From contig NC_057718.1 of the NCBI RefSeq assembly GCF_004010195.1, forward strand, positions 70,453,025 to 70,517,024: a stretch of DNA of 64,000 nucleotides. Reading direction: 5' to 3'. Shown here piece after piece: positions 1-64,000 of the stretch (positions are counted from its first letter, which is position 1; each line of letters begins with the position of its first letter). Origin of the DNA: Chiloscyllium plagiosum. Its lineage: Eukaryota. A model generated the notes under the pieces. It made no database searches and was not told the DNA's origin. It saw nothing but the letters and a program-made list of their open reading frames with translations. A program made the translations under genes and the position numbers.

Positions 1-450
1 AGCACAGCATTTCCACTCCCCCTCCCACTCCACCGAGGATATGCAGGTCATTGGACTCATCCACCGCCAAACCACAATAACGCGACGGTCGGAGGAGGAG
101 CGTCTTATCTTCCGACTGGGATCCCTCCAACCGCAGGGGATGAACTTGGACTTCACCAGTTTCTTCATCCCCCCTCCCCTTGTCTCAGCCGAATCCCTCC
201 AGCCCGGCTCCGCCTTCCTGACCTGCAGTCTTCTTCTTGACCTCTCCGCCTCCATCCTACTCCGACCTATCACCCTCACCTTGACCTCTTTCCACCTATC
301 ACATTTCCAACGCCCCTCCTCCAAGTCCCTCCTCCCTACCTTTTATCTTCTCCTGCTGAACACTCTCTGCTCATTCCTGAAGAAGGGCCTGTGCCCGAAA
401 CGTCGAATCTCCTGTTCCGTGAATGCTGCCTGACCTGCTGTGCTGTTCCA
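1..450 (+). mobile_element. Penelope-like element 3' end (GIY-YIG C-terminus, pyrimidine-rich 3' UTR, pLTR with hammerhead)
   Basis: Translation HFHSPSHSTEDMQVIGLIHRQTTITRRSEEERLIFRLGSLQPQGMNLDF parallels the GIY-YIG C-terminus at 63650-63810; followed by a hammerhead motif at 373-408. Confidence 0.85.
373..408 (+). ncRNA. Minimal type I hammerhead ribozyme motif, family A, intact
   Basis: ATTC-CTGAAGA-A-GGGC-CTGT-GCCC-GAAA-CG-TC^GAAT: stem I ATTC/GAAT, core CUGANGA, stem II GGGC/GCCC, GAAA, palindromic ACGT helix III, predicted cleavage after C404. Confidence 0.85.
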
Positions 451-454
451 GCAA

Positions 455-2999: not shown

Positions 3000-4410
3000 G
3001 GTGTAGGTCTAGGCCATTCAGACCCTTTATTTCCAGATGAAGGCCTTATGCCTGAAACATCGATTTTCCTGCTCCTCGGATGCTGTGCTTTTCCAGCATG
3101 ATACTCTTGACTCTAATCTCCCGCATCTGCGGTCCTCACTTTCACCCATTTAGACCCTTTAGCCTGCTCTGCCATTCAATCAGATCATTGTTGATCTTAT
3201 TGTGGTCTCACCTCTACATTACTGCCTATCCATGAAACCTTTTACCTCTCTTGTTGGTCAAAAATCTATATTCCTGCCTTCTACCACTCTCTAAGAAAGA
3301 GATTTCCACAGATTCACAACCCTCCAGGAGAAATACGTCTTCTCATTTTCAGTTTAAATGAGAAACCCTTTATTTTTAAACTGTGTCCTCTTGTTTTAGT
3401 CTCTCCCACATGGGGAAACATTCTTTCAGCATTCATCCTCTCAAATCGCCTCAGGTTCTTGAATATTTTAATAATAGCACCTCTCAATCTTCTAAATCCC
3501 AATGGATAAAACCTCAAATTAACAATCCTTTCCTTAGTGGAAAACCTCTCATCCCAGGAATCAGTTGGCTAACTTTCTCTGAGCATATTCTGTTGTAATG
3601 ATGACCTTTCTTGAAAAAGGAGACCAAAACTTACCACAGTAGGCTAGGTGGGATCCCACGAAAGCCTCGTTCAATTGTAGCAAAACTTGCCTACATTTTA
3701 TATTCCATTCCCCTTTCAATAAGAGATAATTCCATTTGCTTTCCTAACGACTTGCTGTATGTATGAAGTAGCTTTTAGTGATTTATGTTCCATGTCACCC
3801 AGCTTTGGATGACCCCAGAGGTGGTTATACTCTCAAGATTTAAATAATATGTTGCTTTTCTATTTTTCCCACTAAAGAGGACAACTTCACATTTTCCCTC
3901 ATTGCACTCCAACTACCAATGTTCTTAACTAGTCACTTAATCTTCAAGGGCATTTTGGAAAATTAAAATCAGTACATCTATCTCAGCAGCCATTTATTTT
4001 AAAGTCCATCAAGTCTGAGGACTTGTCAACTTTTCTCAGTACCTTTTCGCCAGTGATGTATTTATTTTAAGTCCCTTCATCCCCATCACTTCATCATAGA
4101 ATGGTTACAGCACAGAATGAGGTCATGTAGCCCTTCCGTCCATACCAGCTCTCATTTAGCTAGTCCTATAACCCCCTTTTCCCTGCAGTGTAGCATGTTT
4201 TTATGTTCAAATAATTATCCAATACTCTTGAAAACCACACTTTAATCTGCCTCCAAACACTCTCACATATATTCCAGATCCCTACCAATCACTGTGGAAA
4301 AACGATTTTCCTCCTGTTGTCATTGACTTCTTTCACCTTAACGAGATGTCCTCCATTTTTGACCCTTCTACCAATAGAAACAATGTCTCCCTATTTACTC
4401 TTTCCAGACT
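3000..4410 (-). mobile_element. CR1 LINE fragments (3' ORF2 and tail), old
   Basis: Minus-strand translation RRLRGAIIKIFK..ERMFPHVGETKTRGHSLK matches the CR1 ORF2 C-terminus. Confidence 0.8.
3030..3145 (+). mobile_element. Non-coding PLE pLTR mini-insertion with decayed family A hammerhead
   Basis: CAGATGA-A-GGCC-TTAT-GCCT-GAAA-CA-TC; flanked by a 16-bp TSD CCATTCAGACCCTTTA (3014-3029) / CCATTTAGACCCTTTA (3146-3161). Confidence 0.8.
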
Positions 4411-7274: not shown

Positions 7275-7381
7275 CAAAAACAGAAATTGAGGAAAAAGTT
7301 CAGCAAGTCTGGCAGTGTTTGTGGAAAGAAATCAGAGTTAACATTTTGGGTTGAGTGACCCTTCCTCAGAAGGCTTTGATT
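7275..7381 (-). mobile_element. Non-coding mini-insertion with decayed family B hammerhead
   Basis: Minus strand CTGAGGA-A-GGGT-CACTCA-ACCC-AAAA-TG-TT-AAC; TSD TAGGTTACTTGTGAT (7260-7274) / TAGGTCACTTGCGAT (7382-7396) inside the Gypsy RT. Confidence 0.7.
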
Positions 7382-8622: not shown

Positions 8623-8686
8623 GACTTACTGCTTCTCGGATGCTGCCTGAACTGCTGTGCTCTTCCAGCTCCATTTATCCAGAATC
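8623..8686 (+). mobile_element. Family A pLTR fragment starting at the predicted hammerhead cleavage site
   Basis: GACTTACTGCTTCTCGGATGCTGCCTGAACTGCTGTGC...CCAGAATC matches the sequence directly 3' of GTC^ in the 37121-37250 and 62617-62746 copies. Confidence 0.7.
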
Positions 8687-12340: not shown

Positions 12341-12369
12341 TGGAATTCAGGGAGAGCTTGACAATTCGA

Positions 12370-12590
12370 GATGAAAATAGAAATTGCTAGAAAAGCTCAG
12401 GTGTGGCAGCATCTGTGAGGAGAAATCAGAGTTAACATTTCAGGTCGAATAGCTCTTCCTCAGAACTCAGTTAAATATTAAAATGTGAAACATTAATGAT
12501 TTCTCTCCACAGATGGCATCACACCTGCTGAGCTTTTCCAGCAATTTCTATTTTCGTCTCAGATTTACAGCACCCACAGTTCTTTCAGCT
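12370..12590. mobile_element. Inverted pair of family B pLTR fragments with decayed hammerhead
   Basis: 12370-12442 is an imperfect reverse complement of ~12486-12558; minus-strand GAGTT-CTGAGGA-A-GAGCT..GACCT-GAAA-TG-TT-AACTC at ~12429-12468. Confidence 0.75.
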
Positions 12591-13570: not shown

Positions 13571-13603
13571 TTAAGTTCAAAGTTAAAAGATATAGTAAGG
13601 AGA

Positions 13604-14295
13604 GTTAAAAATCGCACAATGCCAGGTTATCTTCCAACAGGTTTATTTGGAAGCATTAGCTTTTGGAGAGCTGCTCCTTCAGCCGTTGATTGTGGAGTAT
13701 AAGATTGTAGGACACAGAATTTATGGCAAAAGTTTACAGTGTGATGTAACTGAAATTATATACTGAAAAAGACCTGGATTGTTTGTTAAGTGTCTCATCT
13801 TTCAGAATGAATACATTGCTTTCAGTTTTCATATGTAAATCCCAGAACTTTTTAAAAATTACATTCTCAAGTGAACTTTAACAATTGGTGTCATGTCAGC
13901 CCAGATAATGCACTGAAGGTGTGAGGTGCCCTGCGTGAGACTGTCTGTGCCACAATGTTCAGACTGATTCTAATCTAAAAATCAGATTTACAGAATCTTA
14001 CATGGATTCATGTAAGTTTTTGAGCAAAATAAAATGTATGTGTGTGTGCGCATGTGCGCGTGTGTTTAGGGGGGGTATGACTATCAGTGAGAGAGTGTGT
14101 GTATATATATGTGTGTGATTGTGAGTATAAAGGGGTATAAGTCTGTCAGAGGGTCTGTGTGTGCGTGTGAGTGTGGGACTGTATATATGAGCATATGAGA
14201 GACAGCTTGTGTATGAGAGAAAGTCTGTATGCGTGTACGGGTCTGTAGAAGTGTGTGTGTGTGTCTGTGTCTCTGTGTGTGTATTCCCTGAGATG
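13604..14295 (-). mobile_element. Non-coding family C element (longer parent of the 46149 insertion) with decayed hammerhead and (TG)n-rich tract
   Basis: 13604-13697 aligns with 46149-46244; minus-strand CTGAAGGAGCAGCTCTCCAAAAGCTA is a decayed core; low-complexity TG tract ~14035-14285. Confidence 0.7.
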
Positions 14296-14309: not shown

Positions 14310-16803
14310 CAAGTGTTAGTTACTGCCCCGCAGAGTGAGAACTCAAATCCAGATGTCGTGGAGTTTGGTGTACCTCAAAATACGTTAAACAATGAGGAAA
14401 TCCTTGAGGAATGGGATAGGTGAGTGAACTATCTGTCTCAGGAGCAAAGAACCCAGTTGAAAGATTTGTTGCAGCAGTACGAGGATGCAGGAATAAAATG
14501 CGGAAGACTAATACTATTGTGCATGAGGTGGAAGAAGGGAATGGTGTTCCGATAAAAAAAACACTCCTACAGATGTAATCCTTCCAAAGCCACATAGGTC
14601 CAGAAGGAAGTGGATGCAATGCTCAATGAAAATATCATGAATCAAGTCACAGTGAGTGGAGTTTACCAATCGTGTTAGTTCCCAAATCTCACTAGACTCA
14701 ATTATTTTGTCTGGACTATCAGAAGGTCAATGCAGTAATAAAATCAGACTCATGCCCAATACCAAGATTGGAGGATTGTGTAGAGCAAGTTGGATAAGCC
14801 AGTTATATCACAAAGTAAGACTTAGTGCATGGTTATTGGCAGATACCTGTATCAGAGAAAGTGTGTTTGTAACTCCAAATGGGCTACATCAACTCAAAGT
14901 GATGCCTTTGGAATGAAGAACACACCAGCCATATTCCAAACACTCACGAACAGAGTTGTGGCTGAATTAACAACTGTGCACTTTATTTGGATGACGTAAT
15001 GATCTTTAGCGAGTCATGGAAAGATCACATGGTACATTTGGTAGAGCTCTTTGAACAATTACGAGAAACAAAACTGATAATAAACTTAAAGAAAACTGAA
15101 TTCACAAAGGCAGAGGTGACTTTCTTGGGACATAACATCGGTCATGGAAGGTTGATCCCAAAGAATGCCAAACAAATGCCATCAAGGAATTTCCATGACC
15201 AACCTCAAAGAAAGAAGTGCTTCAATTTTTGGGACTAAGTGAATTTTACTGTAAGTTTGTTCCAAACTTCAGCAGCATGGTGGCACTGCTAATAGATTTA
15301 CTGAAGAAGAACACAACATTTTGGTGAATAGAACAATGCCAGGAAGCATTTGAGAATTTAAAGGTAGCATTAACCACTGCACCAGTTTTAGCTACACCAA
15401 ATTTTTTGAAAGCATTCAGAGTTGCAATTGATGCTAGTGATAAAGGAGTTGGAGCTGTACTGCTACAGGAAGATAGGAGAAAGTGAGGACTGCAGATGCT
15501 GGAGATCAGAGCTGAAACTGTGTTGCTGAAAAAGCGCAGCAGGTCAGGCAGCATCCAAGGAACAGGAGAATCGACGTTTCGGGAGATGATGATGGAATTG
15601 AACAACCAATTGGATACTTTTCAAAGAAACTCAACACCCACTAGAGAAAATACGCTACCATGGAAAACGAATTATTGAGTTTGGTACCAGCCTTGCAACA
15701 GTTTAATGTTTACGTGATGAACAATGTGTTGGAGACAACTGTGGACCCGGATCACAATCCTCTTACAGTCTTGGAACAATTTAAAACAACAACATGAGAC
15801 TGTTTCATTGGAGTATATGTTACAGACATTTAATTTACAATTTTCATGTTGCAGGTCGTAAAAATGTGATAGCAGATGCTTTATCATGGATTTAAAGGAT
15901 AAGATTGGACAGATTCCAAGGTTATATATATGTGTGCAGAAATTAATATGAATTTAGATTAATGTCTTTTGTACTTCGTTGTAATGGGATTAAGAAACAG
16001 GAAAAAAAAGAAACCATCTTTTCATTATGAAGTGGGGAGGTGTTATGAAGTTGAAGGCGTGTCTTGTACCTTAAAGAGAGAGTGAATGCTGTTTGCGCTG
16101 AGAGCTTACAAGCACCTGTCATATGACTAACCAGCAGTCCCAGAATATACTGGAAAATTGAAAATACATTTGGCTGTGAAATAGATACATGAGATGGTTG
16201 CTGTTTTGACAACTTGAACTTAACCAATCAGTTTAAATTATGCCTCAGGATACTAAAACCCAATCGAGTTTAAATATATTGTTTTGCCAACCTTGAATCA
16301 ATGAGACAATCCAATGTGTGGGGTATTAAAAAAGACAGGCATTTTGAAAATCAGAGAGAGTAACTGCCATCAATAGAGTAACTACCATCAAAACACTCTC
16401 TATCAAAGATACCTTTACATTTGAAAAATACTCGCAGTAAAAGAAAGATGACGACCCAGGGAGATCTTCAGCTGGAAGACAAACACTGACAACAGCCACA
16501 TGTGCTTTTGAAATTAAGTTGAGGTAAGTTTAATAAGGGTTTTTATTGGAACAATATATTGTCATAGAGTTGGAGGCAGATAATAAGCAGTTAAGAGAAA
16601 GGGAGGCTTAGAGTTGTGAATAGTTGTTGTTTAATGTGCACTTTTTGAGTTAAAAAATTTATTTTATTGATTTGATTTTATTTTCTTTAAATAATGGAAT
16701 TTGGGAGTTTCTGTCAGTCATATTTTAACAGGTCATGAAGCGAGGTGAGCTTTCCTGGGTGGTTGGTGTAATTAACAGAAGGGTTCACCGCCGTTTCATA
16801 ACA
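14310..16803 (+). mobile_element. Gypsy-superfamily LTR element, Gmr1-like (RT-RH directly followed by PPT and 3' LTR), decayed
   Basis: FVTPNGLHQLKVMP, YLDDVMIFS, AIDASDKGVGAVLLQ, NVIADALS then stop ~15895; PPT GAAGTGGGGAGG; LTR 16041-16803 with 9-bp terminal inverted repeat TGTTATGAA...TTCATAACA. Confidence 0.85.
15475..15583 (-). mobile_element. Family A pLTR mini-insertion, 5'-truncated within hammerhead stem II
   Basis: Minus strand starts CCC-GAAA-CG-TC-GATTCTCC; interrupts RNase H between LLQED and DDGIEQPIGYFSKKL. Confidence 0.85.
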
Positions 16804-18950: not shown

Positions 18951-21400
18951 GAAGTCCAAACACATCTAGCTTGGAATAGTTTAAATTGCTTAGCAACAGC
19001 CAAATCAGAACCAATCAAATGGACATCTGGTTAAATGGTCATTCGGTTCTAATGGATGTCGATACCAATGCAGCCTTTTTGGTGATTGCAGAACCAGAAT
19101 TCACTCTGGATTCCAACCCTTAAAGCTGTGAAAGACCTAGGCTTGATTGAGAACCTATACTGGGGAACCTTTACAGATTAACAGTACAACTTTGTTTCCA
19201 GTCTCTTATGAGAAGGAGATCATTCAGTTACCAGTGATTGTAGTAAAAGACTCGGGTCCAAGCTTGATGGGATGATATTGGTTGAGAAAGATTCACCGAG
19301 ATTGACTCTAAGTTAGAAAATGACTGCCCGAGTGAAGTCATAATTAAACACTCAGAAGGTTTTCAGGAAAGACTATGGACTATCAATGGAGCCAACTTTT
19401 CATGTTGACCAGGAAACAATTCCACAATTCTGCAAGGTCTGCCCAATGTCATTTGCTTTAGAGGCAAAAGTAGAGGCAGAAATCAAGACTAAAGGTGAAG
19501 GAATCATCAAACCAGTCCAGTTTGGGGAACAGGCAGCACCAGTCAGACAAATTCTGAAGCCTCGTGGATCGGTTCACCTTTGTGGAGATTTCAAACAAAC
19601 GATAAACCACTTTTTGTAGCCTCATAAATACCCAGTTCCTCACAAAGCTGGTTGGGGAGCTGTTCTTCAAGAAGCTGGTCATGAGCCATGTATACTTGCA
19701 ATTGCAATTAGATGAGGATTCCCAGAAGTATGCTACTCCCATAAGAGTTTGGTAGTATGAGACTACCTTAGGAGTATCATGGAGAAATTTTAGAAGGTCT
19801 ACCCAGGTTACCATTTATTTATATGACTAATAACAAGGAAGACCAAAAAGTGTGATTAAAGGACATTGTGGTTCTTGTACAGAAAAATGGTTCTTGTACA
19901 GTCCTCCCAGGTGGTTGTACACCTGTGAAGGGAAAAATGTATGTTCTATGCACCCCAAGTGACATACTTGGGCTACAGAGTGGATAAGACTGGGTTATAC
20001 CCATTGGAAGATTAAGTGAGGGTGATCAAAGCTTTCACATCTGTACTGGAGCTTAGATCTTTCCTTAGGCTGGTGAGTTATTTTGGAAAATTTCAGACAT
20101 AAACAGGCTTCCATCCAGGTACCTTTGCGTCAACTCTTAAAAAAGGATCAGCCTTGTAATTGGTCATGTTGCCAGGGAAGTGAAGAAGCAGCTATCGTCC
20201 AAGTGAGATCTAGGTATTGACTCACAATGACTCCCCATATGGCATCAGAGTAGTATTAGTTCATAGGTGACCCAACACAGAGGAATGCCCATTAGCATGT
20301 GCATCCAAGATTTTATCTAATACAAACCATGAAAACACTCAAATAGAGAAGGAAGGTTTGGAATATTTGGAATCAGGAAGTTCCATCATTGCATTTATGT
20401 ATATAAATTTTTAATAATAATAGACCACAAACCCTCGCTAGGTCTAGTTAAAGAGGATGAGATAGTGTCATCCACAGGTTCAGGCCAAATTCTGTGGTGG
20501 ACACAAATTCTAAGTGTGTGTAATTACAAGTTGGAATACCTTCTGGGAGGAGAAAGTGAGGACTGCAGATGCTGGAGATCAGAGTCGAAGAGTGTGGTGC
20601 TGGAAAAGTGCAAAGTTGGAGAGTTGAACCTGGGATGAGGTGGGGGGAGGGGAGATGAAATCAACATTGATCCCATATGGTTGGAGGGTCCCAAGATAGA
20701 AGATAAGGCGTTCTTCCTCCAAGTGTCAGGTGGCTAGGATTTGGAGGTCCTAGCTTGTTCTTGGCAGAGTGGGAGGGAGAGGTGAAGCTATTGGCCAAAG
20801 GGCAATAGGGTTGTTTGGTGCTTGTGTCCTGGAGATGTTCTCAGAAATGTTTATTTCAGGTATGTAGACCGTATGAAAGCAGCAAACTTGCGAGCAGTGT
20901 GGGAGCAAATCATGCCCGGCTCCTTGACTGCCTTTCTGACTGTTCCAAAAACTCCCTTTCCATAAAGCATGAAGGTACCACAGAATCTCAGATGTCACCT
21001 GAAGAGGAGAATAAATGTCTCCTGTGATGCTTCTGGCATAAAAGGCAAGGCACTGTGCATTACATGCCCCCATATCAGATGTACAGTTGGAGGAACCTGA
21101 CCTGGTGCTGAAACGTTCCAAGAAGACCTACAAAGAAAAGAACTGGCCTATGTCCTCAGACTCAGAGGGGCACGGATGTAGTGATTGTAAAAAATTCAAC
21201 CAGGGGATCTCGTAGAATACGAGTTCCTTTGGGCTGTTAATCTGGTCCAATGGAGTCTTGGCTGACATTTATAAACAAAAGTGCCAGGGGTTCTGTTAAC
21301 TCTGAGAACTGACTCCAAGGAAGCTAGATCAGTGTCAAGGACTCTCCACATGTAAATAAAGGTGACTTGGTGATGGGCCAGTCTCTGTGAAGCTATTTTA
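18950..21400 (+). mobile_element. Gypsy copy (PR-RT-RH, integrase missing, 3' region, PPT, 3' LTR 21177-21400)
   Basis: LNGHSVLMDVDT protease-like; KPRGSVHLCGDFKQTIN RT; LTR starts TGTAGTGATTG after a purine tract, contains AATAAA, homologous to 4415-4650. Confidence 0.88.
20548..20850 (-). mobile_element. Penelope-like 3' fragment (GIY-YIG C-terminus plus partial pLTR)
   Basis: Reverse complement matches 63590-63850 (GGAGGAAGAACGCCTTATCTTC) and the family A 3' end CAGCATCTGCAGTCCTCACTTTCTCC. Confidence 0.85.
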
Positions 21401-32112: not shown

Positions 32113-32396
32113 TATTTGGAAAGGCAGGGATTGATTAGGAATAGTCAACATGGCTTTGTATGTGGGAAATCATGGCTCATGAACTTGACTGAGTTTATTG
32201 AAGAAGTAACAAAGAGGATTGATGAGCACAGAGTGGTGGACGTGATCTTTCTGGACTTTTGTCAGGCGTTCAACAAGGTTCCTCATGAGAGACTAGTTAG
32301 CAAGGTTAGATCTCATGGATTACAGGGAGAACTCACCATTTGGATACAGAACTAGGTGGTGGTGGTGGACAGTTGGTTTTCAGACTGGAGGCCTGT

Positions 32397-32708
32397 GATT
32401 AGATTATTTACAGTGTAGAAACAGGCTCTTCAGCCCAACAAGTCCACACTGACCCGCCAAAGCACAACCCACCCAGACCCATTCCCCTACATTTACCCCT
32501 TCACCTAACACTACGGGCAATTTAGCGTGGCCAATTCACTAACCTGCACATTTTTGGACTGTGGGAGGAAACCGGAGCACCCGGAGGAAACCCACGCAGA
32601 CACGGGGAGAATGTGCAAACTCCACACAGTCAGTCGCCTGAATTGGGAATTGAACCCGGATCTCTGGCACTGTGAGGCAGCAGTACTAACCACTGTGCCA
32701 CCGTGCCG
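32397..32708 (-). mobile_element. HE1-like SINE nested in CR1 RT
   Basis: Full head-body-tail on the minus strand; TGTGA on both sides. Confidence 0.93.
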
Positions 32709-33949
32709 TGTGACCAGTGGTGTGCCACAAGGATCGGTGCTGGATCAACTACTTTTCATCATTTATATAAATGATTTGGATGTGAACATAGGAGGTACAG
32801 TTAGTAAGTTTGCAGATGACACAAAAATTGGAGGTGTAGTGGACAGCAAAGAAGGTTATCTCAGAGTACAATGGGATCTTGATCAGATGGGCCAATGGGC
32901 TGAGTGGCAGATGGAGTTTAATTTAGATATATGTGAGGTGCTGCAGTTTGGAAAGGCAAATCAGAGCAGGACTTACACACTTAATGGTAAGGTCCTGGGG
33001 AGTGTTGCTGAGCAAAGAGACCTTGGAGTGCAAGTTCATAACTCCTTGAAAGTAGAGTCGTAGGTAGATAGGACAGTGAAGAAGACTTTTGGTATACTTT
33101 CCTTTATTGGTCAGAGTATTGAGTATAGGAGTTAGGGGGGGTCATGTTGCAGCTGTACAGGACATTGGTTAGGCCACTTTTGGAATATTGCGTGCAATTC
33201 TGGTCTCCTTCCTATTGGGAGGAAGATGTGAAATTTGAAAGGATTCAGAAAAGACATTCAAAGATGTTGCCAGGGTCGGAGAATTTGAGGTGTAAGGAGA
33301 GACTGAAAAGCTTGGGGCTGTTTTCCCTGGAGCTTCAGAAGCTAAGGGGTGACTTAATAGAGGTTTATAAAATCCTGAGGGGCATGGATAGGATAAATAG
33401 ATAAGGTCTTTTCATTGGGGTGGGGGAGTCCAGGGTATAGAGGGGAAAGATTTAAAGGTATCTCAGGAGCAAGCTTTTCACACAGAAGATGGTGCATATA
33501 TGGAATGAGCTGCCAGTGGAAGTGGTGGAGGCATTTAAAAGTTATCTGGATGAGTTTATGAATAGAGGGATATGTTTAGTGGGATATGGACTAAGTGCTG
33601 GCAAACGGGATTAGATTAGATTAGAATATCTGGTTGGCATGGACAAGTTGGACCGTAGAGTCTGTTTCTGTGCTGTATATCTCTATGCATCTGTGTTGAT
33701 GAGTGCCACATGAACTGGAGAATATCTTCTCCCCCCAAAATGTTATTTTCATTTGTAAGTTTCATTTTAACTACTTTTTGTTAGAATGACCTGGAAATAG
33801 TCCTTTGACAAGGACTGGCCAATTATTTAATTTGTTTGTCCATTAATCGACACTCAAAATGAACAAATATGTATCAATGCTGGTGTGATTTGTACAGTTA
33901 GGAAATTAAGATTTGTCTCACTTTGTGAATGAATTGAAGTAAATAAATG

Positions 33950-36271: not shown

Positions 36272-37520
36272 CTTCCTATTCATTACCCATCCAGATGCCT
36301 TTTAAATTCTGCAACTGTACTAGCCTCCATCATTTTCTCTGGCAGCTCATTCCATACACATAACAGCCTCTGTGTGAAAAGGTTGCCTCTTGAGCCTCTT
36401 TTAAATTTTTCCCTCTCACCCTCTAGTTCTGGACTCCCCCCACCCCAGGTAAAAGACCTTGTCTATTCATCCTATCCATTGCCCTCATGATTTTAGAAAT
36501 CTTTGTAAGGTCACCCCTCATCCTCGGACTCTCCAGGGAAAACAGCCCCAGCCTATTCAGCCTCTCTCTATAGTTCAAATCCTCCAACCTTTGCAACATC
36601 CTTGTAAACCTTTTTTGAACCCTTTCATATTTCACAGTATCTTTCTGATAGGAGGGAGATCAGAATTGCACATAATATTCCAAAACTGGCCTAATCAATA
36701 TTCTGTACAGCCGCAACATGACCTCCCAACTCCTATACTTTATGCACTGACCAATAAAGGAATGCATACCAAATGCCTTCTTCACTATCTTATCTACCTT
36801 CAAGGAACTATGAACCTGCACTCTAAGGTCTTTTTGTTCAGCAACACTTCCCAGGACCTTGCCATTAAGTGTATAAGTCCTGCCCTGATTTGCCTTTCCA
36901 AACTCGCATTTATCTAAATTGAACTCCATCTGCTACTTGCTAGCCTATTGGCCCATCTGATCAAGATCCCATTGTACTCTAAGGTGACTTTCTTCGCTGT
37001 CCACTATACCTCCAAATTTAGTGTCATCTGTAAAATGACTAACTATACCTCCTATGTTCACATCCAAATTATTTATATAAATGATGAAAAGCAGTGGACC
37101 CAGCACTGATCCTTGGGGCAGGGTAAAAACAATGACTGCAGATGCTGGAAACCAGATTCTGGATTAGTGGTGCTGGAAAAGCACAGCAGTTCAGACAGCA
37201 TCCAAGAAGCAGTAAAATCGACGTTTTGGGCAAAAGCCCTTCATCAGGAACCTTGGGGCACACCATTGGTCACAGGCCTTCAGTCTGAAAGGTAACCCTG
37301 CACCACCAGCCACTGTCTCCTACCTTTGAGCCAGTTCTGTATCCAAATGGTTAGTCTCCCTGTACTCCATGTGATCTAACCTTGCTACCAGTATATCGTG
37401 AGGAACCTTCTTGAATGTCTTACTGAACTCCATATAGATCACGTCCACTGCTCTGTTCTCATCAATCCTCTTTGTTACTTTTTCAATAAACTCAATCACG
37501 TTAGTGAGACATGATTTGTG
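36272..37520 (-). mobile_element. CR1 LINE RT-3' portion
   Basis: MEFNLDKCEFGKANQGRTYTLNG; ERVQKRFTRML. Confidence 0.92.
37121..37250 (-). mobile_element. 130-bp family A hammerhead mini-element with perfect 10-bp TSD
   Basis: TSD CCTTGGGGCA at 37111-37120 and 37251-37260; minus strand TTC-CTGATGA-A-GGGC-TTTT-GCCC-AAAA-CG-TC-GATT. Confidence 0.9.
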
Positions 37521-44759: not shown

Positions 44760-45885
44760 GAAAAACCACACATATGGACCAAAAGCAATCACCCCAACAC
44801 CTACAAACGAAGCTGCATCAAGACATTATTCTGACGAGCTACATCACACTGCAACACCCAAGAACTACAAAAAGCAGAAGAAAAATACCTATACAACATT
44901 TTCAAGAAAAATAGGTCCCCAGTAAACACAATCCACCTTTTCCTCAGAAACAAACCCAAACAAGCAGACAACGCAACGAAAAACTAAGCCACATTACCTT
45001 ACATCAAAGACATATCAGAAATCACTTCCAGACTACTCAGACCCCTTGGCATCATGGTAGCCCATGAACCTACCAACACACTTAAACAGCAACTAATGAA
45101 CCTAAAAGATCCAATAGATACCAGCAGCAAAACTAACTTCATTTACAAGATACCATGCAAGAACTGTAAAAAACACTACATCAGACAAACTAGCAGGACA
45201 CTTGCCACCAGGATACGTGAACACCAGCTGGCCACCAAAAGACACGACCCACTATCACTAGTTTCTATACAGGAGAAAGTGAGGTCTGCAGATGCTGGAG
45301 ATCAGAGATGGAAATGTGTTGCTGGAAAAGCGCAGCAGGTCAGGCAGCATCTAGGGAACAGGAGAATCGACGTTTCGGGCATTAGCCCTTCTTTGACTGA
45401 GACAACACACACATCCTCAGACAGGTAAAACAAAAACATGCATGAGAATTCTTAGGATTCTCCTGTTCCCTAGATGCTGCCTGACCTGCTGCGCTTTTCC
45501 AGCAACACATTTCCATCTCTAGTTTCTATACATACAGACAAAGAAGGATGCCACTTTGACTGAGACAACACACACATCCTCAGACAGGTAAAACAAAAAC
45601 ATGCATGAGAATTCTTAGAGGCATGGCACTCTAACCAGAACTCCATCAATAAACACATCGATTTAGATCCTATCTACCTTCCCTTGAAAAAAATAACATC
45701 ACCCACCTTAAGAAACCAAGCCCTATAAATAGAGAGGTGGGACATACCACCAGCTCTTCACCAGAGACGCTTACTGACTGACCATGTTACTTAGTATGGT
45801 GTCTGAAAACAAACCCTCAAGCTTAGCGAGTTAATTTACATATTTATCATCAACCTGAGCTACAAATCTTCTCAAAAATCGCTAA
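44760..45885 (+). mobile_element. Penelope-like element (same family as 27217-28072), decayed, with nested complex insertion
   Basis: NFIYKIPCKNCKKHYIRQTSRTLATRIREHQLATK (GIY-YIG); same 3' end CCTGAGCTACAAATCTTCTCAAAA..CGCTA. Confidence 0.92.
45271..45518. mobile_element. Inverted family A pLTR insertion with captured 65-bp target copy
   Basis: TSD CTAGTTTCTATAC (45258-45270, 45519-45531); arms 45304-45368 and 45456-45520 are reverse complements; spacer 45391-45455 equals 45554-45618. Confidence 0.9.
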
Positions 45886-46148: not shown

Positions 46149-46366
46149 GTTAAAAATCACACAACACCAGGTTATAGTCCAACAGGTTTAATTGGAAGCA
46201 CACTAACTTTCGGAGCGACGCTCCTTCATCAGGTGATTGTGGAGGGCTGATGAAGGAGCGTCGCTCCGAAAGCTAGTGTGCTTCCAATTAAACCTGTTGG
46301 ACTATAACCTGGTGTTGTGTGATTTTTAACTTTGTACACCCCAGTCCAACACCGGCATCTCCGAAT
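46149..46366. mobile_element. Inverted family C element with two oppositely oriented hammerhead motifs
   Basis: 84-bp arms 46149-46232 and 46247-46330 (1 mismatch); CTGATGA-A-GGAGC-GTC-GCTCC-GAAA-GC-TA-GTG on +, and the equivalent with stem I CAC/GTG on -; TSD-like CATTATTCCATG (46138-46149) / CATTATTTCATG (46367-46378). Confidence 0.9.
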
Positions 46367-52141: not shown

Positions 52142-52515
52142 GAGAAAGTGGGGACTGTAGATGCTGGAGATCAGAGTCAAAACATGTGCTGGAAAAGCAT
52201 GGCTGGTCAGGCACATCCAAGGAGCAGGAGAGTTGATGTTTTGAGCAAAAGCCCTTCAGGAATGAGGTGGTGGCCCAAGGGAGTGGAGGTAAATGAGGGG
52301 TGGGGCTGGGAAAGGTAGCTGGGAATGCAATAGGTAGATGGAGGTGGGGGGGGGGGGGTGATGTACAGTTTGAAGGTGGTGCTAGGATAAGAGGAGGGGG
52401 AAATGAAGAAACTGGTGAAATCAACATGGATCCCATGTAGTTGGAGGGTCCCAAGGTGGAAGGTGGTGGTCTTTAGGCATTGGGTGGCTAGAGTTTGGTG
52501 GTGGAGGAGGCCCAT
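52142..52515 (-). mobile_element. Penelope-like 3' fragment with decayed family A hammerhead
   Basis: FHLGTLQLHGIHVDFTSF on the minus strand; CATTCCTGAAGGGCTTTTGCTCAAAACATC decayed core. Confidence 0.85.
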
Positions 52516-52571
52516 GGGAGCACTATCATTGCACCACAACAGTCCTAACTTGGTTCAGTTTAACATAACTG

Positions 52572-60700: not shown

Positions 60701-62527
60701 TCACTAGAATGCAGGGGATTGAGGGGTAACCTGAAGTTTATAAGATTGTGTGAATGGAGTGGAATGTTGGCTTCCTCCCCCCCCAGTGTGGAGCGCTCCA
60801 TTTAATAAGTGGGGAGGGGGAAGGCAGTGGTTGTGAGGAGTGGGAGTTTGAGATGTGCAAGTCCAGCTTTTCTCATGAAGGGTGGTGAGCATGCTGCCAG
60901 AAGATGTAGTGGAAGCAGATGCACTAATAGCATTCAGGAAGTACCTGGATGCCTACATGAATAGGAAGGGAATAGAGAGATGTAGATCCTGTAAGTGAAG
61001 ACCATTTTCAGTATGGAAGAGCAAAATGCATCAGCCCAGGCTTGAAGGGTCTATTCTAGTACCATGGAAGAACAATATCCTTCCTACAGAAGGGCAACCA
61101 GAACTGGACACTACTCCAGAAGAGACTCCCCAGCGTCATGTACAACCTCAATATAGCATCTGAACGCCACACGCAATGGCCTGAGCAATGAAGGCAAGCA
61201 TGCTAAATGCTGCCTTAACCACCCTGTCTACCTGTGACACAAATTTCAAAGAACTGAGGTTTCTGCTCTGCAATGCTCTCCAAGGCCCTCCCATTAACTG
61301 TAAGTCCTCCCCTTGTTTGTTTTTTAACAAAATACCTTGCATTCATCCAAATTAAATTCCATCTGCTGCCACTCACCCCATTGGCCAATTAATCTCTTTG
61401 TAAACTTGGATAAGCTTCTTTTTACTGTCCACTATACCACCAATTATGTGTTATTTGCAAACTATGTTCTCATTTAAAATCACTTAATGAACAAAATTGG
61501 ACCCAATAAGCTTTCAATTGATTTTCTTCAAGTACATTTAGAAAATGTTTTTTCACACTAAAGGAATGTTGAGATATATGTAGATTATAAACTAGATATG
61601 GTTTTTGAATGTTGACTTAATTATTCCTGAGTAAGTATTGATCATGAGTCTTGCCCTAAGTAATTTATTTTGGTAGGTAATGAGGAAAACTTAGGTTGAC
61701 TTCTATTTTATATAGCAAATTCCATGACCTCCGGATACCAGACACTTCACAGCTAATGAAATTTTGAAATGTAGCTCTTCCCACATAGCAAGCTGCCAAA
61801 AACAGTGATCATGAGCTGCTAATCTGTTAGTGATTTTTGCTTGTTTTGAAGCTTTGTTTTGAGGCATAAGTATTGGACACTGAAGAAAACCTTCCTCTTG
61901 TTCAGAGTAATATATTCCCTTTCTTTTAGGGCTCAATGTAGGAGCAATAAGTTGAGAGCACCCTGGATGTCTAAAAATATTCGGAACTGGTTAAGAAAGA
62001 TTAGCATACAAATGAAAAAATCAACCGAGGCTGTAATCACGTAGAATGTGTGCAGGGATGGTGCTTAAGGAAATAATTGGAGCAAAGACTCATCATGCAA
62101 GATTTAGTGAGAATCTCAAGATATTTGAGAATATCAAGGGCAAGAGAATAACCAGGGAAAGAATTGAGCAAATTAGCTGTCCTCCGGTCCTCTGTCTGAT
62201 GTGGTTTCATTTACTTTTTAATAAAAGGATGGTAGAGAATCCAAGGAAATAAAAGGCAGCAAGTCTCTCGTTAGTGATAGGAAAGCTGTTGGGGGAAAAA
62301 AGAATTCTGAAAGAGAATTGAATTTCTAACTTAGAAATGCTAGATGTACAGCACAGAAACTGACCCTTCAGTCCACCTCATCCATGCTGACTGCGTATCC
62401 TAATCTATTCTAGTCCTATTTGCCAGCACTTGGCCCATATATCCCTCCAAACCCTTCCTATTCATATACCTATCCAGATGCCTTTTTAAATATTGCCATT
62501 GTACTAGCCTCCACTAAATCCTCTGGG

Positions 62528-62746
62528 ATTCTGGATCAGTGGTGCTGGAAGAGCACAGCAATTCAGGCAGCATTCGAGGACAGGCAAAATTGACGTTTTG
62601 GGCAAAAGTCCTTTTTATTCCTGATGAAGGGCTTTTGCCCGAAACGTCGATTTTTGCCTGTCCTCGGATGCTGCCTGAATTGCTGTGCTCTTCCAGCACC
62701 ACTGATCCAGAATCTGGTTTCCAGCATCTGCAGTCATTGTTTTTAC
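62528..62746. mobile_element. Inverted family A pLTR insertion
   Basis: TSD CTAAATCCTCTGGG (62514-62527) / CTAAATCCACTGGG (62747-62760); arms ~62527-62612 and ~62628-62714. Confidence 0.9.
62617..62652 (+). ncRNA. Minimal hammerhead motif, family A, intact core, weak stem I
   Basis: ATTC-CTGATGA-A-GGGC-TTTT-GCCC-GAAA-CG-TC^GATT. Confidence 0.8.
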
Positions 62747-63249
62747 CTAAATCCACTGGGAGCTCATTCCATACACGCACCACCCTCTGTGTGAAAAAGT
62801 TGCCCTTATCTAAATTAAACTCCATCTGCCACTCCTCAGCCCATTGGCCTAGCTGATCAAATCCCGATGTACTCGGGTATCCTTCGCTGTCCACTACACT
62901 TCCAATTTTGGTGTCATCTGCAAATTAACTAACATTTCCTCCTATGTTCACGCCCAAATCACACTCACTGATCCTTGTGGCACACCACTGGTCACAGACC
63001 TCCAGTCTGAAAAGCAATCTTCCATCACTATGCTGTCTTCTATCTTTTTTGAGCTAGTTCTGTATCCAAATGGTTAGTTCTCCCTGTATGCCATGAAATC
63101 TAACCTTGCTAACCAGTCTCCCATGAGGAACTTTGTCGGACACCTTACTGAAGTCCATATAGATGACGTCCATCGCTCTACCTTCATCAATCCTCTTTGT
63201 TACTTCGAAAAGCTCAAGCAAGTTTGATACATGAATATGGAAAGTAATG

Positions 63250-64000
63250 GGTGGGTGTCCTGGAGATGTTCCCTAAAGCGCTCCACCACCAGGGATATAT
63301 TTCCCTCCCCACCCCTTTCTGCCTTCTGCAAAGACCGTTCCCTCCGTGACTACCTGGTCAGGTTCACGCCCCCCCGCCCCCAAAACCCACCCTCCCATCC
63401 TGGCACCTTGCCCTTCCACCGCAGGAACTGCAAAACCTGTGCCCACACCTCCTCCCTCGCCTCCATCCAAGGCCTTAAAGGAGCCTTCCACATCCATCAG
63501 TTTTACCTGCACATCCACTAATATCACTTATTGTATCCGTTGCTCCCGATGTGGTCTCTACGTTGGGGAGACTGGAGACCTCCTGTCAGAGCGCTTTTGG
63601 GAACGTCTCCGGGACACCCGCACCAATCAACCACACCGCCCTGTGGCCCAACATTTCAACTCCCCCTCCCACCCTGCCGAGGATATGGAGGTCCTGGGCC
63701 TCCTTCACTGCTGCTCCGTTACCACCAGACACCTGGAGGAAGAACGCCTCATCTTCCGCCTCGGAACACTTCAACCCCAGGGCATCAATGTGGACTTCAA
63801 CAGTTTCCTCATTTTCCCCTTCCCCCACCTCACCCTAGTTCTAAACTTCCAGCTCAGCACTGACCTACCTGCCACCTATCTTTTCCACCTATCCCCTCCA
63901 CCCTCCCCCGACCTATCACCTTCATCCCCTCCCCCAATCACCTATTGTACTCTATGCTACTTTCTCCACCCCCACCCTCTAGCTTATCTCTCCACGCTTC
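63250..64000 (+). mobile_element. Penelope-like element (Neptune-type Cys-rich linker plus GIY-YIG), 5'-truncated with short inverted 5' piece
   Basis: RRNCKTCAHT linker; TNITYCIRCSRCG.YVGETG; HFNSPSHPAEDMEVLGL..EEERLIFRLGTLQPQGIN; 63253-63283 is the reverse complement of ~63589-63619. Confidence 0.9.

What the first reader, a model, noticed from the sequence alone, without database searches (positions are those of the whole stretch)
37111..37260. 130-bp ribozyme-headed mini-element with a perfect TSD: a possible retrozyme/SINE-like non-autonomous unit
The insert consists only of the hammerhead plus ~95 bp of pLTR. I see no Pol III boxes, ORF or polyA tail, and it has an exact 10-bp TSD. Similar units occur at 3030, 7275 and 15475, and their 5' ends all fall within or a few bases from the hammerhead. 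Inference: either a discrete short RNA is mobilised in trans by PLE RT/GIY-YIG, or reverse transcription stalls reproducibly at the ribozyme structure.
Basis: partly seen in the sequence, partly recalled or inferred. Interest (0 to 1): 0.7.

Follow-up and report, generated by a model that had tools for sequence, protein, structure and literature searches.

The report
Penelope stub ending at RNA cap
This 130-base insertion is a short end-piece of a common Penelope-type jumping gene rather than a separate ribozyme element, and such pieces pile up just in front of the ribozyme motif, often with an extra G, likely because the copying enzyme starts about 130 bases inside the RNA and runs off its capped front end.

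Summary
The insert (37121-37250, minus strand) and its exact 10-bp TSD are real; it interrupts a LINE RT fragment. It is the terminal 130 nt (minimal hammerhead plus 99 nt) of an abundant RT + GIY-YIG Penelope-like element (PLE); this copy's ribozyme core is mutated. The 5'-end pile-up is real: in 1.2 Mb of evenly spaced genome sample plus the window, 55 of 127 arms reaching it stop 29-34 nt upstream of the predicted cut, versus 0.002-0.008 per base in most other bins. Ends lie at an initiator-like A, not at the cut; G is 59% of non-native bases before that A genome-wide. Solos interleave with long copies on a tree and are single units, so retrozyme is rejected and a SINE family unsupported. 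53 of 58 classifiable head-to-head pairs join one tailed and one tail-less arm. Best reading (0.6): internally primed reverse transcription runs off the capped start of the PLE RNA. Against: about 30 of 100 ORF-linked arms continue upstream, the G is rarely provably untemplated, RNA reads showed no discrete ends, and this copy lacks the G. The scan noted this same pattern before, here and in other genomes.

The parts
37111..37120 (.). Target-site duplication, copy next to the element's 3' end
   Evidence: Exact 10-bp match to 37251-37260; one copy only in empty LINE sites
37121..37250 (-). 130-bp insert: terminal part (hammerhead + 99 nt, tailed end) of a GIY-YIG Penelope-like element, subfamily here called A
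   Evidence: 95-98% identical to the 3' ends of L002-L030, 18 of which continue at least 27 nt into upstream element sequence (counted by eye); GIY-YIG and RT reading frames upstream in L018/L027
37220..37250 (-). Minimal type I hammerhead motif; predicted cut between 37220 and 37219; G12 replaced by A at 37227 (CpG decay), so predicted inactive
   Evidence: Sequence; comparison with 29 relatives; layout as in PMC4209133; monomer does not fold as a hammerhead
37121..37155 (-). About 35-nt optional 'tail' between the two fixed 3' ends of the family
   Evidence: Two 3'-end classes among arms; window copies 8626-8686 and 62527-62613 end at the inner site
37251..37260 (.). Target-site duplication, copy next to the element's 5' end; the insert begins one base short of the initiator-like A and has no extra G
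36276..37517 (-). Host: decayed LINE reverse-transcriptase fragment interrupted in its [13 protein letters not shown] motif (CR1-like by recall)
   Evidence: Both flanks align collinearly with another copy at 32167-33565; empty-site test
3014..3161 (+). Sister solo of an older subfamily, same 5' end (-31), 16-bp TSD with 1 mismatch
62527..62747 (.). Head-to-head pair of the same subfamily group (tail-less arm + tailed arm, junction at the hammerhead), 15-bp TSD with 1 mismatch
45271..45520 (.). Head-to-head pair of subfamily B with 63 extra bases at the junction, 13-bp TSD
15475..15583 (-). Subfamily B arm truncated inside stem II (-11); no TSD found

Best explanation
The insert is a dead 130-bp copy of the terminal repeat of an abundant Penelope-like retroelement, likely made when the element's reverse transcriptase primed at a fixed internal site of its own RNA and ran off the capped 5' end, which is predicted to lie at the initiator-like A one base in front of this copy. 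Shown: the sequence is the element's terminal hammerhead-plus-tail segment; the family has two fixed 3' ends 35 nt apart; the ORF starts about 37 nt after the outer one; 5' ends peak 31-32 nt upstream of the hammerhead cut; G is over-represented in front of the peak A; head-to-head pairs combine one of each 3' end inside one TSD. Inferred: the peak A is the transcription start of the pLTR promoter; the G is a copy of the cap; each target strand primes at one of the two sites; singles arise when only one cDNA is kept; longer copies come from the 3' pLTR or from RNAs that begin further upstream. Ribozyme cleavage plays no part in making most stubs.
For: Parent element: GIY-YIG (E 1.8e-4) and RVT_1 (E 2.4e-4) matches, both below Pfam's cut-off, with a CX4CxxC linker; ORF start after the tail in L301/L302. 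Peak: 55 of 127 arms at risk stop at -34..-29 (0.072 per nt), 2 of 60 at -50..-41, 8 of 57 at -75..-51, 10 of 202 at -4..+1; singles 22 of 61. Alignment-free check: 16 of 45 tailed singles have a TSD above the null maximum, 12 of the 16 end at -23..-48. Peak base is the A of TCATTCC/TTATTCC (initiator consensus recalled). Whole-genome exact counts of the base before it in the GAAG-core subfamilies: C (native) 48,338, G 10,476, A 5,197, T 2,070. One base further in, G is 17 of the first 100 non-native. In long copies the same position mutates normally: T 68, A 19, G 13 of the first 100 of 131. In subfamilies where fold-back copying would give A, flank-joined copies show G 23, A 12 (first 100 of 785 and first 100 of 3,581, counted by eye; p=0.004). 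53 of 58 classifiable pairs are tailed/tail-less, 43 of 60 pairs have a TSD (null 2 of 300), and several long pairs have near-equal arms (-228/-242, -68/-73, -66/-73, -80/-67). Precedents: internal RT initiation at two sites, both strands extended, cleavage not needed (PMC11167929); promoter and start site inside the pLTR (PMC2377424; PMC8557442); extra G from the cap at full-length L1-made insertions (PMC11702581).
Against: Arms that run on into the ORF start should come from the RNA's 5' part, yet about 30 of the first 100 of 225 carry at least 40 nt of native upstream sequence (by eye), not clearly fewer than the roughly 42% estimated for all arms (p=0.015, or 0.23 without the 15 tandem-unit rows): not every RNA starts at this A. 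The G is rarely provably untemplated: of 14 flank-joined G copies, 2 have it as a single extra base, 7 inside the TSD, and in 15 of 29 G loci an inverted arm adjoins and can template it. In B subfamilies a fold-back onto the base at +5 could also give G. In one search overall G 27 and A 29 were equal. Ends at -31 are as many as ends at -32 (17,497 versus 17,743). This copy starts at -31 without G. No transcription start was measured.
Confidence: 0.6

Rival explanations
1. The RNA continues upstream, but cDNA synthesis stops at the 5' edge of the hammerhead, or an exonuclease trims the RNA to that edge, because of the folded or protein-bound ribozyme.
For: The peak coincides with the 5' strand of stem I (-32..-29); the stop rate rises through the ribozyme (0.006-0.035 per nt from -5 to -28); about 30 of 100 ORF-linked arms pass the point.
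Against: A structural block should act where RT enters the fold (3' side, around +4), where the rate is only 0.008 per nt; the fold is weak (z -0.65 to -2.1 for the A-type motifs, +0.5 for B3); a stall does not predict G specifically before the -32 A.
Confidence: 0.2
2. The 130-nt units are themselves transcribed from an internal Pol II promoter in many scattered solo copies and are mobilised in trans, as a SINE-like population without a single master.
For: Very high copy number (227 arms in 1.215 Mb); Penelope has an internal promoter (PMC2377424); pLTRs suffice in cis for mobilisation in trans (PMC3846280); the same start site and extra G would result.
Against: No solo clades: 24 changes versus shuffled mean 24.5, at least 8 forced by supported branches; for 20 of 29 solos the nearest long copy is as close as the nearest solo. 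The tree has only 88 columns and 29 solos, so small solo lineages would be missed.
Confidence: 0.13
3. The peak is produced at the joining step: cDNAs of random length are trimmed back to the ATT at -32, which anneals to AT-rich target ends or to the partner arm.
For: Many junctions show 1-4 nt of microhomology over the A or GAT; pair junctions often overlap by 1-2 nt; the related PAc endonuclease prefers ATT (PMC11167929).
Against: The same peak occurs in singles and in pairs, whose partners differ; the ATT at +2 and AT-rich words further upstream give no comparable peak.
Confidence: 0.05
4. A non-LTR retrozyme monomer: a hammerhead-excised, circularised RNA reverse-transcribed and inserted.
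For: It carries a type I hammerhead motif; retrozyme monomers related to pLTRs are described (bioRxiv 10.64898/2026.07.22.740005); a weak rise of 5' ends near the cut (20 arms at -4..+7).
Against: Single unit with one motif; both ends are away from the cut (31 nt upstream, 99 nt downstream); 7 of 212 uncensored arms start within 1 nt of the cut versus 53 at -33..-29; core mutated in this copy.
Confidence: 0.02

Closest known systems
Endonuclease-positive Penelope-like elements, Neptune/Nematis type (PMC8557442, 12 passages read; PMC3846280, 12 passages read)
   Same: RT followed by CX2-5CxxC linker and GIY-YIG; heavy 5' truncation; inverted 5'-truncated copy at the 5' end; 30-40-bp tail on one end only; partial tandems; start site in the pLTR; TSDs; solo pLTRs.
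   Different: The passages read do not report a single-base pile-up of 5' ends at the front of the hammerhead or an extra G. PMC3846280 explains head-to-head repeats by self-priming on an antisense template; the tailed/tail-less pairing here fits priming from both target strands better. Clade not tested by a tree.
PAc, Poseidon element of Anolis carolinensis (PMC11167929; parts 1-2 of 4 read; supplements not seen)
   Same: RT starts at two internal sites that define the tail, about 110-120 nt past stem II; both target strands extended; 5' shortening of the RNA shortens the product; hammerhead cleavage not needed.
   Different: Poseidon clade, ORF starts within the ribozyme; here the ATG lies about 37 nt after the tail. 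No cap signature is reported in the parts read; Fig. S2 on genomic ends was not seen.
Minimal hammerheads in metazoan pLTRs (PMC4209133; parts 1-2 of 4 read)
   Same: No helix III, palindromic 15.2-16.2, extra base between 9 and 10.1; most motifs are single and belong to truncated PLEs; some pairs lie close on opposite strands.
   Different: That paper proposes self-cleavage and circles as the route; ends here avoid the cut. Stem II is 4 bp rather than 7-8.
Non-LTR retrozymes (PMC7229834, 12 passages read; bioRxiv 10.64898/2026.07.22.740005, parts 1-3 of 5 read)
   Same: Type I hammerhead, non-coding, related to pLTRs.
   Different: Defined as tandem 170-400-nt units with a ribozyme in each, expressed as circles; this is a single 130-bp unit whose ends ignore the cut.
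Full-length L1-made insertions with a cap-derived extra G (PMC11702581; 12 passages read)
   Same: Extra G at the 5' junction where RT reaches the capped end.
   Different: L1 primes at the poly(A) 3' end, so run-off gives full-length copies; internal priming near the 5' end would give 95- or 130-bp stubs.

Membership tests
EN+ Penelope-like element | Single ORF with RT followed by GIY-YIG endonuclease in the parent | tested here: met
   RVT_1 E 2.4e-4 and GIY-YIG E 1.8e-4/0.029 in L027 and L018, below Pfam cut-offs but in the expected order directly upstream of the 130-nt end; no gap-free full-length copy seen
EN+ Penelope-like element | Hammerhead in the pLTR, sense to the ORF | tested here: met
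   Rfam gave no match
EN+ Penelope-like element | Optional 30-40-bp tail, inverted 5' partner, partial tandems | tested here: met
   Singles 50 tailed, 45 tail-less; 53 of 60 pairs mixed; tandems
Neptune/Nematis clade | CX2-5CxxC linker between RT and EN | tested here: met
   CX4CxxC in L018, L022, L006 translations; feature from PMC8557442
Neptune/Nematis clade | RT phylogeny with reference elements | not tested
   No reference sequences were fetched
Non-LTR retrozyme | Tandem units, each with a complete hammerhead | tested here: not met
   Single unit with TSD; only 13 of 242 arms have a direct copy within 900 bp upstream
Non-LTR retrozyme | Intact, self-cleaving ribozyme | tested here: not met
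   G12 replaced in this copy; activity of intact relatives not testable here
Non-LTR retrozyme | Expressed as linear and circular monomer RNA | tested here: inconclusive
   One raw run with 1,624 reads laid showed both strands and no discrete ends; poly(A) single-cell library cannot show circles
SINE | Pol III internal promoter and A-rich or repeat tail | tested here: not met
   No A or B box by regex, no A6 run
SINE | Own lineages, separate from the partner element | tested here: not met
   Solos interspersed with long copies, low-resolution tree

The most novel reading that the evidence does not exclude
Penelope-like elements place the hammerhead at the very first bases of a capped transcript and prime reverse transcription twice, once from each cut target strand, at two sites in the 5' leader 95 and 130 nt from the cap. 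Run-off at the cap then makes most genomic copies: singles, head-to-head pairs with the tail on one arm only, and, by jumps onto further RNA, the partial tandems and 224-bp ribozyme arrays from which retrozymes can arise. The genome would thus record the start site and a double-ended integration step that explain the long-known pLTR/tail architecture.
Probability: 0.45. Interest if true: 0.65.

Novelty: new member of a known kind. Interest (0 to 1): 0.42.

Why it matters
The insertion itself is one dead copy among several hundred thousand. Its population matters because how PLEs replicate, and what their hammerheads do, is open. The data give a base-level prediction for the start site, argue that ribozyme cleavage does not define most inserted ends, and tie the one-sided tail to priming from both strands. 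Each can be tested with CAGE and with the published in vitro PAc assay. It also warns that 'retrozyme monomers' found by similarity may be such stubs.

Tried and rejected
Rfam scan: no hammerhead family matched; only hairpin look-alikes at the inverted pairs. First 5'-end map against one reference overstated the peak because subfamilies diverge upstream of the ribozyme; redone against 50 long references, dropping 57 of 299 weak hits, 8 arms without a reference and 7 of another family, with 15 arms censored by gaps or region edges. RNA: no listed holder is on record as RNA; of four runs laid, X20 gave no reads, X19 showed no discrete starts or ends, X1 and X2 are contigs and cannot show ends: no verdict. 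Test that ORF-linked arms never pass -33: failed. Test that flanks of short arms resemble the sequence after the tail more than flanks of long arms: null (60 short, 12 long, p=0.76). Test for a cap G carried through a strong-stop-like strand transfer into long copies: no excess (G 13, A 19, T 68). Energy scan for self-pairing cDNA ends showed many sites, not one at -32. Dimer folding by energy minimum did not return the double-hammerhead. Literature searches listed no paper on a fixed, G-marked 5' end of PLE stubs; only titles and abstract starts were seen for most hits and the library lacks subscription papers.

Full report
Observation. The window holds CCTTGGGGCA at 37111-37120 and again at 37251-37260, with 130 bp between. 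The flanks belong to one decayed LINE reverse-transcriptase fragment. Rejoining them with one copy of the repeat gives a sequence that 28 of 35 BLAST hits in my sample span, 25 without gaps, so this is a true insertion with a true TSD. On the minus strand the insert opens with a minimal hammerhead: CUGAUGA, one extra A, a 4-bp stem II, the GAAA box and a palindromic CGUC, the layout described for metazoan PLEs (PMC4209133, parts 1-2 read). In this copy the GAAA box reads AAAA; 23 of 29 close relatives have G. The predicted cut lies 31 nt inside the insert, with 99 nt after it. Of the three other loci named, 3030 is a matching solo, 7275 belongs to another hammerhead-bearing family, and 15475 starts inside stem II with no TSD found.

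What it is. The window lies in a 3.56-Gb genome; that it is shark-like rests on recall and on earlier AI notes, and was not tested. The 29 best relatives share the 3' end; 18 continue at least 27 nt upstream into more element sequence (by eye), which leads to a reading frame with a CX4CxxC motif and GIY-YIG, and further up to RT (Pfam E 1.8e-4 and 2.4e-4, both under the curated cut-offs). Where sequence follows the tail in tandem copies, an ORF begins about 37 nt later. The insert is therefore the terminal segment of an endonuclease-positive PLE of Neptune/Nematis type, and the same segment is the leader in front of the ORF.

Population test. I took 120 evenly placed 10-kb stretches from the 20 largest contigs plus the window. 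A profile found 299 hits; 242 passed a score filter, 227 belonged to this family group and had a long reference, 212 were uncensored. That is about 190 arms per Mb. Counting from the predicted cut, 55 of 127 arms that reach -29 stop by -34 (0.072 per nt); rates are 0.035 at -28..-23, 0.026 at -40..-35, 0.012 at -22..-17, 0.006-0.008 from -16 to +7, and 0.001-0.006 upstream of -40 and downstream of +7. Singles show the same peak (22 of 61). An alignment-free check agrees: 16 of 45 tailed singles have a TSD above the null maximum and 12 of these end at -23..-48. The window itself, chosen for this finding, contributes a few arms.

Not a retrozyme, probably not a SINE. Only 7 of 212 arms start within 1 nt of the cut. 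Direct neighbours within 900 bp are rare (13 of 242). On a tree of 29 solos and 56 long copies the label changes 24 times, as in shuffles (mean 24.5), with at least 8 changes forced by supported branches; resolution is low. Retrozymes are defined as tandem units expressed as circles (PMC7229834, passages; bioRxiv 10.64898/2026.07.22.740005, parts 1-3).

Two starts, two strands. The family has two 3' ends about 35 nt apart. 138 of 242 arms have a head-to-head partner, 12 a tail-to-tail one. Of 60 reciprocal pairs, 53 join a tailed to a tail-less arm, 3 and 2 join like arms, 2 are unclassified; 43 have a TSD, against 2 of 300 shuffled pairs. The one-sided tail and the inverted partner are known (PMC8557442, passages; PMC3846280, passages). 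In vitro, the anole element PAc starts reverse transcription at two internal sites that define the tail, extends both target strands, and does not need ribozyme cleavage (PMC11167929, parts 1-2). The inference is that each cut strand primes at one of the two sites.

Why -32. The peak base is the A of TCATTCC or TTATTCC, an initiator-like word (consensus recalled); Penelope's promoter and start site lie in the pLTR (PMC2377424, passages). Exact whole-genome counts of the base before it, for the GAAG-core subfamilies, are C 48,338 (native), G 10,476, A 5,197, T 2,070. One base further in, G is 17 of the first 100 non-native bases. In long copies this position shows an ordinary spectrum, T 68, A 19, G 13 of the first 100 of 131, so the G is not a mutation hot spot. 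In those subfamilies a cDNA fold-back could also add G; in subfamilies where it would add A, flank-joined copies still favour G, 23 to 12 (by eye; p=0.004). An extra G from the cap marks full-length L1-made insertions (PMC11702581, passages). Several long pairs have near-equal arms, as expected if both cDNAs end where the template ends.

Against. About 30 of the first 100 arms linked to the ORF start carry 40 nt or more of upstream sequence, so many templates extend past -32; tandem read-through or template jumps could explain this, but it was a prediction that failed. The G is a clean single extra base in only 2 of 14 flank-joined cases, inside the TSD in 7, and 15 of 29 G loci adjoin an inverted arm. 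G and A were equal overall. Ends at -31 are as common as at -32. This copy starts at -31 with no extra G. A flank-similarity test was null, no cap G was carried into long copies, and RNA reads gave no verdict.

Verdict. A real, ordinary dead stub of a known kind of element. Run-off at a capped start is the best explanation (0.6), a stop or trimming at the ribozyme's front edge next (0.2). I had reached this reading before looking at the scan's notes; those notes report the same pattern in this and other genomes and are not independent support. My seven completed literature searches listed no paper that states it.

Noticed in passing
L305-L309 (G000 C1, C2, C3); about 15 of the 100 rows: A 224-bp tandem unit (from -46 through hammerhead and tail to about 78 nt of the ORF-side sequence) recurs with the same junction at many loci, often next to assembly gaps, each unit with an intact hammerhead core. 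This, unlike the finding, fits the definition of a pLTR-derived non-LTR retrozyme array.
   Followed up: partly
L271-L300: Partial tandems made of a first arm ending near -32 joined to 40-150 nt of ORF-start sequence and a second arm; junctions vary per locus, which suggests template jumps onto RNA downstream of the tail.
   Followed up: partly
window 46149-46331 and 13603-13697: A third hammerhead-bearing repeat family (stem II of 5 bp) forms a near-perfect head-to-head pair at 46149-46331; Rfam scores it as a microRNA-like hairpin below threshold.
   Followed up: no
window 12368-12560 and 7275-7371: Second hammerhead-bearing family, also as a head-to-head pair; longer copies in the sample have TCAGTT four bases before the core, the same spacing as the initiator-like word of the main family, and the pair at 12463 has a G in front of that A.
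   Followed up: no
sample arms at -4..+7, e.g. window 8626-8686, L292, L297: A weak rise of 5' ends near the predicted cut (20 of 212) might be a minor class copied from self-cleaved RNA; it does not stand out from the rates inside the ribozyme.
   Followed up: partly
window 5-453 (+), 52153-52526 (-), 20548-20846 (-), 63281-64000 (+): Longer 5'-truncated copies of the same PLE group that include GIY-YIG coding remnants.
   Followed up: partly
L301 2162-3295, L302: The ORF's N-terminal part (about 380 aa open) carries a variable Pro/Thr/Ser-rich tandem repeat and has no Pfam match.
   Followed up: no
L001-L030 upstream flanks: Many long copies break into assembly gaps within 100-600 bp upstream of the ribozyme, so long copies and arrays are probably under-counted.
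   Followed up: no
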